A stretch of 61,495 bases of DNA, counting the filler, from Stramenopiles sp. TOSAG23-6 (taxonomy: Eukaryota), in the NCBI GenBank assembly GCA_900128565.1. It is 11 parts of 11 records of this genome, joined end to end, with 100 filler letters (N's around TTAATTAATTAA, not from the genome) between each part and the next. Parts side by side here need not be neighbours in the genome. Positions count along the whole stretch, not along the records: positions 56,019 to 61,495 come from LT636900.1; 10 more parts are not named here. One strand, 5' to 3'. Positions 57,159 to 59,093 of the stretch are shown in pieces; positions within the stretch are counted from its first letter, which is position 1; each line of letters starts with the position of its first letter. The notes below the pieces were generated by a model, which did not search any database, was not told the origin of the DNA, and worked only from the letters and a program-made list of their open reading frames with translations. Position numbers and translations under genes: made by a program.

Positions 57159-59093
57159 CTAATCCAGCTTAATGTTAACCTCACTTGGACAAACTAAATC
57201 ATCCCAGCCGTACCAAAGACCTAATAATACTATTATATGTACTACAGTCAAAATAAGCGAGGATGAGAAAGTAGATGTGTCTGTAAACCACGGATTCCAA
57301 CATAATTCTATTAGTAGAAAAAGCACAATTCGAAAAATATCTGGAAATTTACAACACCATAATAAAAATATATTGTAAAAAAATATTTCATTTTTTTTTG
57401 TTAGGTACAAAATTTACTATGAAATTTACGAAAAAAAAAAAATGATGATTTCAAAAACGTACATGGAATTGTATGGAAATACCAAACATAAAATTGAAAA
57501 TGGAGAGATCGAGCACAACATGTATTTTGGAAAAATATTTCAAAAAAACATCGTTAGGTACAAATTTTCGTAGGAAAAATAAATTCGAGATTGAAAAAAA
57601 AATAAAACATACATATACCTATAAAATTTGACGTAAATAAAATTGCTATTAATTGACTTGAGCTAAATATTCGTTTTTGTTGAATTATGTTTGTGTTTTC
57701 TATATTTTCTGTCCTTTTCGACATTGCATATTTCCATAATCTACAAATGCCACTTGTATAAGATGAAATCAATGTTTTATTTGACATTTTTGAGTTTCGT
57801 TTTTTTTCTTGATTTATAAAATTTGGTATTTTGCAACACCATCGATAATTCGCAAAACAATACCAAAATAGTATATTAAGGAAGAATAAAAATAATGCAA
57901 ATAGTTTTGAAGTAAATACTCCGCTACAATCGACTAGTTTAGTTTGCATTTCTATTGGTAAAGTTGTACAAGGAATAAATTTAAAATTGACGCTCCAATA
58001 ATGCTTGAAGACACGTGTCAAATTGAACGATTGGGTGAGATATGCCCATGGCGCCACAAGTAAAAATGGAAATGCACAAATAATTTGAATAAAACCACAT
58101 AGGAGTATATGTACTACAGTTTTTTTTAAGCCGAGTTCAGAGAGAAGTATCACAAAGTATTGTGAAAAATATTTCAAAAATTTGATTATTTTTGTTAGGT
58201 ACGAAATTTTCTATGAAAAACAAAATTGAAATTTATGATGAAAACATACAATAACCCCGGGGCAAAGAAAATAATGTTCATGTTTTGTGAATTAAATATG
58301 TTTCAAGTTTTAAAATTCGTTAGGACTTGGTATGACACTTTTGGATTTTCTAAAAATTTGTGAGGTACAAAATTTTCATAGTAAAAAAGTTGATGATGAA
58401 AAAGTACATTTTGATACTAAAAGCAAAACTGAATAAGATACACCCGTAGCTAAATCGATTATATAGAAAACAAAGAATCGCACAATATAGAAACATCATA
58501 GCCGGTCCATCATTGAATAAACGTAAAACGAAGATCGAATGTACACGCTTTGAAATGGATAATAAAATCAATAATATTGGGTGAAATCTCCGAGGTGCAG
58601 CTTTTGCGTAAATTATGGTTACAATAAAAAGAGTAAATAGATAGAATACCATAAAGATACATTGAGCTCGACCAATATCATTTCCACCATCCGTTAAAGT
58701 CCATAAAATAGAATATATTGCTACAAACCCGCCCGGATACACCAATGGACCTGTTCCACCTTTGAGGTTGGAGTAATTAAAGTCATTGCGAAGAAGAGGA
58801 CCTTCAACTTCCTGCATATAAGCTTTCCAGTCTATTTCTGTATAAGAAATTCGTTGGACAATCAACACATTAAGAGCTAAATCTAAAAGTATCAATACAC
58901 AAGCAACAATGATAAATGAAGAAAAGGTACTTTCGACACTGTGTAATATTGTACCAACTACTGGAAGGTTGAAAACGCTTCTAGGGATTAAGGGTAACAA
59001 TCGTTTTTGTTTCTTTCGCAGTCTATCCTTTTTCGATTTTACCAATATCCGGTCAATCTTGGGTTGATCTAAAGAAGCTATATTTTTATTCAT
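57159..59093 (-). CDS. ALG3: Dol-P-Man:Man5GlcNAc2-PP-Dol alpha-1,3-mannosyltransferase, 5 exons
   Basis: [91 protein letters not shown]. Confidence 0.96.
57368..57462 (-). mobile_element. Introner-like intron, GT-AT
   Basis: CCAT|GTACGT..TACAATATAT|TT gives HTIPFLLW. Confidence 0.88.
57520..57612 (-). mobile_element. Introner-like intron, GT-AT
   Basis: ATAT|GTATGT..CCAAAATACAT|GT gives [12 protein letters not shown]. Confidence 0.92.
58155..58249 (-). mobile_element. Introner-like intron, GT-TT
   Basis: TTATT|GTATGT..TACCTAAC..CACAATACTT|T gives APGLFVILLSELG. Confidence 0.78.
58280..58407 (-). mobile_element. Introner-like intron, GT-AT
   Basis: AAAAT|GTACTT..TACCTCAC..GTCCTAAC..CACAAAACAT|G gives SIKMNI. 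Confidence 0.85.

What the first reader, a model, noticed from the sequence alone, without database searches (positions are those of the whole stretch)
58155..58251. The 3' splice site appears to be a 2-bp target-site duplication (TT..TT, AA..AA, AT..AT)
In 17 of 26 complete copies the two exon bases before GT equal the last two intron bases. These are mostly AT/AT, but TT/TT here and AA/AA at 8431-8527, so the acceptor tracks the insertion site. The core element is then GTAT(G)TTTT...AAAATAC, a short imperfect terminal inverted repeat as in a MITE. In several mismatched cases (11770 GCC T, 16703 CAG T, 51124 GGT T, 17145 CAC), the upstream copy differs from AT by a synonymous third-position change, as expected if the upstream copy is exonic. 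Known: Micromonas and Aureococcus introners co-opt TSD bases as splice sites. Inference: scarless intron creation at AT rather than AG targets.
Basis: partly seen in the sequence, partly recalled or inferred. Interest (0 to 1): 0.85.

Follow-up and report, generated by a model that had tools for sequence, protein, structure and literature searches.

The report
Repeat-derived introns ending without AG
A short AT-rich repeat has spread through the genes of a marine protist as introns that start with GT but mostly end in AT instead of AG, and those last two bases may be a copy of the insertion site, which would let the element create removable introns almost anywhere.

Summary
Window 58155-58249 (- strand) is a 95-nt intron of an ALG3-like gene. 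It is one of 26 unique complete copies of a 87-197-nt repeat family. All 26 lie in sense orientation inside ORFs. Removing GT...(two bases after the conserved ATAC) restores the frame in 25 of 26 directly. It also reproduces the Pfam ALG3 profile spacing exactly. One polyA-RNA contig confirms it at 56689-56787.

The last two intron bases are AT in 20 copies, AG in 4, AA in 1 and TT in 1. They equal the two exon bases before GT in 17 of 26, against 13.2 expected (P about 0.005). That excess rests entirely on the TT/TT and AA/AA copies.

A 2-bp target-site duplication is therefore the best reading (about 0.6) but is not shown. The main rival is an element-borne AT plus an AT insertion preference. 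The MITE-like inverted repeat is weak: GTA/TAC and a T/A run, with no covariation.

An ordinary GT-AG intron (RPS6) lies in the same window. Non-AG introns that spread as repeats ("introners") are already published for Amoebophrya and Fritillaria, so this is a new variant of a known kind. Genome-wide tests could not be run because no genome is held.

The parts
58155..58249 (-). The finding's intron (95 nt), GTATGTTTTC...CACAATACTT. It is a copy of the repeat family (the variant with ...TTTTTCACAATAC). It has no AG between the CTAAC motif and the 3' end, and none in the next 40 exon bases.
   Evidence: (phase 2, in frame); Pfam ALG3 spacing
58250..58251 (-). Exonic TT just before GT. It is identical to the last two intron bases (58155-58156).
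58252..58279 (-). 28-nt micro-exon of the ALG3-like gene. It encodes (M)NIIFFAPGL(F) between two family introns.
   Evidence: 12 residues fill Pfam ALG3 profile positions 161-172 exactly
58280..58407 (-). ALG3 intron (128 nt), AT|GTACT...AAAACAT|G. It splits a Met codon as AT|G.
57520..57612 (-). Family intron (93 nt), AT|GT..AT, ALG3-like gene.
57368..57462 (-). Family intron (95 nt), AT|GT..AT. It is in frame only once the 57-nt exon before it is accounted for.
56689..56787 (+). Degenerate family intron (99 nt) in a TTL-like gene, TT|GTAGG...ATACAT|GT. This is the only copy with an RNA joint.
   Evidence: (run X10, record 6: 56588-56689 joined to 56790-56848, 0 other letters), (TTL)
8431..8525 (-). 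Family intron (95 nt), AA|GTACG...CAATATAA|. Its duplicate lies at 47655-47749.
   Evidence: phase 0, in frame
8702..8801 (-). Family intron ending in AG (AT|GT..AG).
4975..5066 (-). Family intron, AT|GT..AT.
5229..5329 (-). Family intron, TA|GT..AT.
5680..7682 (+). Six family introns of one + strand gene, all AT|GT..AT: 5680-5780, 6400-6502, 6796-6910, 7123-7220, 7448-7554, 7594-7682. They are duplicated in contig 9.
11770..11856 (+). Family intron, CT|GT..AT, at the end of a lysine-methyltransferase-like gene.
16591..16703 (-). Degenerate family intron, GT|GT..AT, in an OGT-like (Glyco_transf_41) gene. The upstream frame is a tie because the contig ends after 69 nt.
17029..17145 (-). Family-derived intron with a canonical AG end (AC|GT..AG), in a short-chain dehydrogenase gene.
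24449..24614 (-). Composite copy with an internal 40-nt tandem duplication, AT|GT..AG.
26149..26345 (-). Composite copy (one and a half units), AT|GT..AT.
26480..26581 (-). Family intron, AT|GT..AT.
27716..27819 (-). Family intron, AT|GT..AT.
33216..33307 (-). Family intron, AT|GT..AT.
39563..39671 (+). Family intron with an AG end (GG|GT..AG).
51124..51221 (+). Family intron, TT|GT..AT.
54513..54619 (-). Family intron, AT|GT..AT, in an ORC6-like gene.
   Evidence: profile 50 before the intron, 55 after it
41857..42198 (+). Comparator: an ordinary GT..AG intron (GTACGT...CACAG) in the ribosomal protein S6 gene. It is not a family copy.
   Evidence: read directly: LRVF + T|AT GAC gives YDTRMGQEV

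Best explanation
The window comes from a marine stramenopile-like eukaryote. A short non-coding AT-rich element has multiplied in it as introns (an 'introner' family).

What each copy carries:
- a U2-type-looking donor, GTAYGTTTT;
- a central palindrome, TTTCGTACGAAA;
- a branch-type motif, GTACCTAAC, 33-48 nt before the 3' end (57 nt in one AG-ending copy);
- a T-rich tract;
- a conserved tail, ...GAAATATTTTT(C/T)CA(A/C)AATAC.

Shown: RNA cleavage and ligation remove GT...TAC plus exactly two more bases. Those two bases are AT in most copies, but TT here, AA at 8431 and AG in four copies.

Inferred (probability about 0.6): the element proper is GTA...TAC. It integrates as DNA at a (C)AT(G)-like site with a 2-bp staggered cut, which duplicates the central dinucleotide. 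The upstream copy stays in the exon. The downstream copy becomes the last two intron bases, so the mRNA is restored without a scar.

Inferred (weaker): the spliceosome places the 3' cut by position, two bases past TAC at a set distance from the branch site in a tail that lacks AG, and not by reading an AG.
For: Family: 61 profile hits in the window, of which 26 are unique complete copies. Pairwise identity averages 0.72.

They are introns:
- 25 of 26 join the best flanking ORFs in frame on the element's own strand. This includes one tie (16703) and one near-tie (5680). The 26th (57462) is in frame once its 57-nt upstream exon is tracked.
- By my own arithmetic, chance at 1/3 per copy gives about 2e-11.
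- ALG3: exon 1 ends at Pfam profile position 160, exon 3 residue 2 is at position 173, and the micro-exon plus junction codons supply exactly 12 residues.
- In the finding's copy the only internal AG (CATAG) would run into TAA (read). There is no AG from the branch motif to +40.

RNA: a polyA metatranscriptome contig joins 56689 to 56790 with no mismatch. It keeps the upstream T at 56687. That excludes an intron ending at TAC and leaves GT..AT (or the shifted reading TG..CA).

Duplication:
- 17 of 26 match, P = 0.005.
- Both non-AT, non-AG ends equal their exon flank.
- The mismatch rate is no higher than decay predicts.
- All 5 x/AT mismatches are in phase 1, where -2 is a third codon position.
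- C at -3 in 11 of 30 (P = 0.004) and G at +1 in 15 of 30 (P = 1e-5) give a palindromic C-AT-G target.
- The AT|G junctions split host Met codons, one at an aligned position of the ALG3 profile.

Major-spliceosome look: the GT-AG RPS6 intron in the same window also starts GTACGT.
Against: - Only two copies carry locus-specific information, and the pattern was noticed before it was tested.
- The AA copy's 3' end rests on the profile alignment plus the frame. A 98-nt reading would also be in frame, and Pfam does not cover that exon.
- AT/AT pairs fit an insertion preference equally well. Many environmental contigs share the AT 5' flank (table 7).
- The inverted repeat is minimal and shows no covariation. 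RNAalifold finds no structure.
- No transposase was found in the window: the Pfam on 19 ORF pieces showed host domains only.
- No empty site was found.
- Every complete copy is genic and in sense orientation. RNA-mediated spread would also predict this.
- No further copies could be obtained from the held collections (0 profile hits in 298 loci).
- RNA support is one contig from a mixed community. That intron is a multiple of three with no stop, so the frame gives no independent support for it.
Confidence: 0.6

Rival explanations
1. The element carries both ends itself (GTA...TACAT) and makes no duplication. It enters after an exonic AT because of a target or 'proto-splice-site' preference (CAT|G). 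The route could be reverse splicing of the excised intron, or a transposition mode without duplication. On this reading the TT/TT and AA/AA cases are point mutations of the terminal AT that happen to match off-target flanks.
For: - 20 of 26 copies end in AT, and the two terminal columns are among the best conserved (A 22/23, T 20/23).
- All complete copies are genic and in sense orientation, as in fungal introner-like elements, which lack such duplications and inverted repeats (PMC9860276, passages).
- The inverted repeat is weak.
- CAT|GT...CAT|G mirrors the canonical CAG|GT...CAG|G pattern, which exists without any duplication (established knowledge, recalled).
- 5 copies have a non-AT flank but an AT end.
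Against: - Two of two non-AT, non-AG ends match their flank. The shuffle probability is 0.0045.
- The symmetric C(-3)/G(+1) enrichment is what a palindromic DNA target gives.
- A degenerate copy lies between convergent genes at 16022-16134, so the family is not strictly confined to coding exons.
Confidence: 0.27
2. The copies are minor-spliceosome (U12-type) introns spread by a transposon, as proposed for Physarum. U12-type splicing tolerates GT-AT ends.
For: - GT-AT is a recognised rare U12-type boundary (PMC1557818, passages).
- GTATGTTTT differs from the [G/A]TATC[C/T]TTT motif quoted there at one position.
Against: - Position +5 is G in 21 of 24 copies, and position +4 is C in about half.
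- GTACGT is also the donor of the ordinary GT-AG RPS6 intron.
- The conserved CTAAC motif lies 33-48 nt from the 3' end. In Physarum the branch motif lies 9-12 nt from it.
- No snRNA of either spliceosome is in the window (Rfam: 0 matches), so this is untested at the machinery level.
Confidence: 0.07
3. Excision is guided by pairing of the intron ends or by the direct repeat itself. This would resemble euglenid nonconventional introns or the hairpin introners of Amoebophrya, and would not involve ordinary splice-site recognition. Flank and acceptor would then co-vary for mechanistic reasons and not because of a duplication.
For: - The consensus ends can pair: GTAT.TTT with AAA.ATAC, 80.8% of cells.
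- Short direct repeats overlap the boundaries, as in Amoebophrya (3-5 nt repeats; PMC7789003, passages) and euglenids (PMC11282704, passages).
- Four different 3' dinucleotides appear to work.
Against: - There is no covariation, and no consensus structure in 24 copies.
- Pairing at position 4 fails in half the copies.
- The copies have a strong U2-type donor, a branch motif and a T tract.
- 9 of 26 copies lack the repeat yet keep the frame.
Confidence: 0.04
4. The copies are not introns. They would be assembly or amplification artefacts, or in-frame coding repeats.
For: - The assembly is fragmented and contigs often end inside copies.
- A few copies are open in the host frame (for example 56689-56787).
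Against: - The frame test, the ALG3 spacing and the RNA joint all argue against it.
- An independent seawater DNA run carries the same intron edges (table 8: X3 records 16, 17, 19).
Confidence: 0.01

Closest known systems
Introners that carry the 5' splice site and take the 3' splice site from the target-site duplication (Chrysochromulina family, 4-bp duplication; Micromonas and Aureococcus families). Sources: Gozashti et al. 2022, PMC9860276, and the review PMC11282704 (passages only).
   Same: - A short non-coding repeat multiplied as introns in unrelated genes.
- The donor is carried by the element.
- The last intron bases are proposed to be the duplicated target.
- Splicing leaves no scar.
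   Different: - The duplicated bases here would be AT (or TT, AA) and not AG, so the acceptor is non-canonical.
- The duplication would be only 2 bp.
- The inverted repeat is minimal.
Non-canonical MITE-derived introns of the tunicate Fritillaria borealis (Henriet et al. 2019), known to me only through the review PMC11282704 (passages).
   Same: - Non-AG acceptors (AC, AT) arise from a repeated exonic motif next to a transposon-like intron.
- Ordinary GT-AG introns coexist in the same genome.
- The spliceosome is thought to have become tolerant of such ends.
   Different: - Fritillaria introns start with AG (AG-AC, AG-AT) and are preceded by exonic TAC.
- Here the donor is a strong canonical GTAYGT and only the acceptor deviates.
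- The host here is a protist, not an animal.
Amoebophrya non-canonical introner elements (Farhat et al. 2021, PMC7789003, passages).
   Same: - A marine protist with repeated introns that have non-GT-AG ends.
- Short direct repeats overlap the exon/intron boundaries.
- No transposase is associated with the copies.
   Different: - Amoebophrya has 8-20-nt inverted repeats forming hairpins, 3-5-nt repeats and no preferred dinucleotides.
- Here there is one dominant GT-AT pattern, a branch motif, and no supported hairpin.
Physarum U12-type intron expansion (Larue, Elias and Roy, bioRxiv 10.1101/2020.10.12.336362, passages).
   Same: - Thousands of introns are proposed to come from an element with short inverted termini and a 2-bp (TA) direct repeat.
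- GT-AT is among the boundaries tolerated.
   Different: - Those introns carry U12-type donor and branch motifs 9-12 nt from the 3' end.
- The copies here look U2-type, with the branch motif 33-48 nt away.

Membership tests
Introner elements (repeat families that function as spliceosomal introns) | Many related copies of one sequence at intron positions in unrelated genes | tested here: met
   26 unique complete copies in genes for ALG3, TTL, ORC6, OGT-like, SDR, a methyltransferase and others
Introner elements (repeat families that function as spliceosomal introns) | Copies are removed from the mRNA precisely | tested here: met
   One RNA joint; 25 of 26 in frame; exact ALG3 profile spacing. 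Direct RNA proof exists for one copy only.
Introner elements (repeat families that function as spliceosomal introns) | Canonical GY-AG boundaries (usual, not obligatory) | tested here: not met
   Only 4 of 26 end in AG; 20 end in AT, 1 in AA, 1 in TT
MITE / non-autonomous cut-and-paste DNA transposon | Target-site duplication that varies with the locus | tested here: inconclusive
   17 of 26 match, P = 0.005, but only 2 informative (non-AT) pairs
MITE / non-autonomous cut-and-paste DNA transposon | Terminal inverted repeats | tested here: inconclusive
   GTA/TAC plus a T/A run; 80.8% of cells pair, equal to shuffles; position 4 pairs in 11 of 23
MITE / non-autonomous cut-and-paste DNA transposon | Autonomous partner with the same termini and a transposase | not testable with these tools
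   No genome is held. No transposase domain in the 19 ORF pieces scanned.
MITE / non-autonomous cut-and-paste DNA transposon | Copies in both orientations and outside genes | tested here: inconclusive
   All 26 complete copies are genic and sense. One degenerate copy lies between convergent genes at 16022-16134.
U12-type (minor spliceosome) introns | Donor motif [G/A]TATCCTT | tested here: not met
   The consensus is GTAYGTTTT, with G at +5 in 21 of 24. The motif is as quoted.
U12-type (minor spliceosome) introns | Branch motif close (about 10-15 nt) to the 3' end | tested here: not met
   The CTAAC-type motif lies 33-57 nt from the 3' end in 22 of 26. The tail ...TTCCAAAAT is a poor match by my own reading.
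U12-type (minor spliceosome) introns | Presence of U11, U12, U4atac and U6atac snRNAs | not testable with these tools
   No genome is held. Rfam found nothing in the window.
Hairpin-type non-canonical introns (Amoebophrya introners, euglenid nonconventional introns) | Stable pairing that brings the intron ends together | tested here: not met
   RNAalifold: 0 pairs in 24 copies; no covariation in the terminal helix
Fritillaria-type non-canonical introns | AG-AN boundaries | tested here: not met
   All 26 copies start with GT

The most novel reading that the evidence does not exclude
In this protist the major spliceosome does not read the acceptor dinucleotide for these introns. It cuts at a fixed place, two bases past the element's terminal TAC, in an AG-free tail at a set distance from the branch site. 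A tiny DNA element with a 2-bp duplication can then turn any dinucleotide it lands on into a working 3' splice site. The element supplies most of the introns seen in this sample of the genome: 26 family introns against one ordinary intron recognised in about 55 kb.
Probability: 0.3. Interest if true: 0.8.

Novelty: new variant of a known kind. Interest (0 to 1): 0.62.

Why it matters
If the reading holds, this is a clean natural case in which a transposon makes introns without needing an AG. The donor and branch site come with the element, and the acceptor is whatever two bases were duplicated. That bears on two questions: how introns are gained in bursts, and how strictly the second step of splicing depends on AG.

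There is also a practical consequence. Gene finders that allow only GT-AG would mis-predict most intron-bearing genes of such organisms, by truncating them, reading through, or reporting few introns. In this window 22 of 26 family introns would be missed.

It also gives a testable system. The same family holds AT, TT, AA and AG acceptors in one genome, alongside ordinary GT-AG introns.

Tried and rejected

More copies elsewhere:
- The core motif was scanned in metagenome contigs (64 loci), viral contigs (114+) and genome contigs (120+).
- The family profile found no copy in the 64 metagenome loci except one weak 29-nt hit, and none in all 298 loci.
- The motif hits were therefore chance matches.

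Reads:
- Only contigs were laid, and no RNA contig bridges the finding's own intron.
- No empty-site contig was seen in the independent DNA run X3. Uncovered stretches say nothing either way.
- Most listed joints are cross-mapping between family copies.

Readings rejected:
- An AT-AC-type reading (intron = NN+GTA...TAC) is excluded for 56689 by the RNA contig.
- A 3-nt CAT duplication fails: copies whose third-last base is T do not have T at exon -3 (read).
- A duplication lying outside the AT pair fails: exon -3 and +1 rarely match (read).
- A Tc1/mariner-type TA duplication inside GTA...TAC would require conserved host flanks, so it was rejected on logic.

Other negative results:
- Rfam: 0 families. 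RNAalifold: no structure.
- The ORC6 profile spacing across 54619-54513 is continuous only to within two positions.

Literature:
- 'GT-AT' + intron + introner gave 0 papers.
- The searches found no description of this family.
- Passages of PMC5269757 mention only 'few but long introns' in low-GC uncultured stramenopile single-cell assemblies. I draw no link to this window.
- Supplementary tables of the introner surveys were closed. They may already list this organism or family.

Ends were then set from profile positions and coordinates instead.
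Full report
**What the window is.** The 61,495 bases are eleven contigs of about 5.5 kb, sorted by length and joined by N44-TTAATTAATTAA-N44 linkers. Contig 9 (44852-50336) is a near-identical duplicate of contig 2 (5628-11150), so every count below uses unique copies only. G+C is about 33%. The genes are eukaryotic. A beta-adaptin ORF has stramenopiles as its best named relatives: Cafeteria at 73% identity, then oomycetes and diatoms. 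Public runs holding the stretch are marine.

**The repeat family.** A 17-nt core motif occurs 48 times against 1.5 expected. A profile built from aligned copies gives 61 hits. I set the ends by profile positions and, for irregular copies, by coordinates. This yields 26 unique complete copies of 87-197 nt, plus eight partial copies cut by contig ends or N runs.

The alignment of 24 copies has these features:
- GTAYGTTTT at the 5' end, with G1 and T2 invariant;
- a central TTTCGTACGAAA palindrome;
- GTACCTAAC;
- a T-rich stretch;
- the tail GAAATATTTTT(C/T)CA(A/C)AATAC followed by two bases.

Pairwise identity averages 0.72. Per-site departure from the consensus is 0.186.

**They are introns.** On the element's own strand, removing GT through the second base after ...TAC joins the longest flanking ORFs in frame in 25 of 26 copies.
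- One of the 25 (16703) is a tie, because only 69 nt remain before the contig end.
- One (5680) is a near-tie.
- The 26th (57462-57368) is in frame once the 57-nt exon before it is tracked.
- At 1/3 per copy this is about 2e-11 by my own arithmetic.

For the finding's own copy the evidence is stronger. The host gene is ALG3-like. Exon 1 aligns to Pfam ALG3 up to profile position 160, and exon 3 from position 173 at its second residue. The 28-nt micro-exon plus the two junction codons give exactly the 12 residues in between. Both flanking introns are therefore excised as modelled: 58407-58280 (AT|GT..AT) and 58249-58155 (TT|GT..TT). In the finding's copy the only internal AG (CATAG) would lead into a TAA. 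No AG exists from the branch motif to 40 nt into the exon.

**RNA.** Only one lay of reads was allowed, and it returned contigs, not reads. A polyA metatranscriptome contig (run X10, record 6, 163 nt, no mismatches) covers 56588-56689 and 56790-56848 with one letter between. That is a net skip of 99 nt across a degenerate family copy. The genome reads CAAGAT|TGT|AGG...ATACA|TGT|GGA, so the possible termini are TG..CA, GT..AT, TA..TG or AG..GT.
- No GT-AG reading exists.
- The contig keeps the T at 56687, so the upstream dinucleotide is exonic and an intron ending at TAC is excluded.
- This intron is a multiple of three with no stop, so the frame adds nothing for it.
- The independent DNA run X3 carries the intron edges. 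No empty site was seen.

**The dinucleotide pattern.**
- Last two intron bases: AT in 20 copies, AG in 4, AA in 1, TT in 1.
- Exon -2/-1: AT in 17, TT in 3, and one each of TA, AA, CT, GT, AC and GG.
- Matches: 17 of 26 (15 AT, 1 AA, 1 TT).
- Shuffling gives 13.2 on average, with P = 0.005. The probability of two or more non-AT matches is 0.0045, so the signal is the AA and TT copies alone.
- With a per-site decay of 0.186, an originally perfect 2+2-base repeat would survive intact in about 44% of copies. 65% are intact, so the nine mismatches do not argue against a duplication.
- All five x/AT mismatches are in phase 1, where -2 is a third codon position. This is 5 of 5 against 8 of 15 for AT/AT copies, about P = 0.08 by my own hypergeometric arithmetic.
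56689 and 5329 do not.

**The flanks.** C is enriched at -3 (11 of 30, P = 0.004) and G at +1 (15 of 30, P = 1e-5). The pre-insertion site therefore looks like the palindrome C-AT-G. The AT|G junctions often split Met or TG(T/G) codons of the host.

**What the pattern cannot decide.** Gozashti et al. state that a motif matching across all introns cannot separate a duplication from an insertion preference (PMC9860276, passages). Here only two copies are locus-specific.
- The inverted repeat is GTA/TAC plus a T/A run. 80.8% of cells pair, no better than shuffles, and position 4 pairs in 11 of 23.
- RNAalifold predicts no structure.
- No transposase domain appears in the 19 ORF pieces scanned.
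- All complete copies are genic and in sense orientation. One degenerate copy lies between convergent genes.
- No further copies exist in the collections I could scan.

**Which machinery.** The RPS6 gene in the same window has an ordinary GTACGT...CACAG intron (41857-42198). GT-AG splicing therefore coexists with the family, and the family's donor matches the ordinary one. The CTAAC-type motif lies 33-48 nt from the 3' end (57 nt in one AG copy) in 22 of 26 copies. 13 of those 22 have no AG between motif and end. The others have one at +10 to +24, or the terminal AG itself.

This looks U2-type. A U12-type reading is disfavoured by G at +5 and by the branch distance. GT-AT is nevertheless a known U12-tolerated boundary (PMC1557818; Physarum preprint).

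**Comparison with what is known.**
- Introners that take one splice site from the duplication are established (PMC9860276; review PMC11282704).
- Non-AG acceptors derived from a repeated exonic motif are reported for Fritillaria (AG-AC and AG-AT, exonic TAC). I know this through the review only.
- Repeated non-canonical introns with short direct repeats are reported for Amoebophrya (PMC7789003).

The case here differs in three ways. It has a canonical strong donor with a dominant AT acceptor. The putative duplication is 2 bp. The host is stramenopile-like. My searches found no description of it. Supplementary tables of the surveys were closed and may cover it.

**Verdict.** The intron family and its non-AG ends are solid. 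The 2-bp duplication is the best-supported reading (about 0.6) but rests on two copies. The MITE label is not established. This is a new variant of a known kind, of moderate to high interest.

Noticed in passing
window 16160, 16340, 17769, 18443, 18606, 19830, 21864, 22258, 25988, 27554, 31417, 31502, 43785, 55206: The exact 12-mer AACCCTAACCCT (two telomere-type CCCTAA units) occurs 14 times on both strands, against 0 in 100 shuffles. Some copies lie between genes. Others lie inside long ORFs, where they read NPNP(N) in frame. They may be short interstitial telomere-like boxes, perhaps a regulatory motif.
   Followed up: partly
window 5528-5627 and nine further linkers; 5628-11150 versus 44852-50336: The window is not one molecule. 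It is 11 contigs joined by N44-TTAATTAATTAA-N44 linkers, and one contig is present twice. Any count over the window double-counts eight family copies unless it is de-duplicated.
   Followed up: yes
window 8702-8801, 17029-17145, 24449-24614, 39563-39671: Four family copies end in a canonical AG. In two the end is ..ATACAG, one base away from ..ATACAT. This suggests drift or selection from AT towards AG acceptors.
   Followed up: partly
window 6400-6502 (+): This copy has an 8-nt direct repeat, CATTCCAT, across its boundaries (exon end and intron end). That is much longer than the 2-nt pattern. It may be chance or local conversion.
   Followed up: no
window 24449-24614 and 26149-26345 (-); 27220-27400 (-): These are composite copies. 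One has an internal 40-nt tandem duplication that includes the branch motif. One is a one-and-a-half-unit copy. One region has a copy followed at once by a second 5' end next to an N run.
   Followed up: partly
centre of each copy, e.g. window 26275-26298: A perfect 12-nt palindrome, TTTCGTACGAAA, sits just upstream of GTACCTAAC. It contains a second GTACG donor-like motif. Its role is unknown.
   Followed up: no
table 7 (loose ends at 56074-56077): PolyA-RNA contigs from other loci match the element's 3' tail and then diverge at different points. One continues with GT straight after ...ATAC. Copies elsewhere in the community may therefore carry other terminal dinucleotides.
   Followed up: no
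table 2 (bins 56019-56201 and 57483-57665): Summed contig depth over element positions is thousands of times that of the flanking exons, in both a seawater DNA run and an RNA run. The family, or relatives at 90% identity or more, is very abundant in that community.
   Followed up: no
window 18670-19581 (-): An ORF made of DUF4116 repeats (Pfam E = 7e-67, 4 stretches). It is intronless.
   Followed up: no
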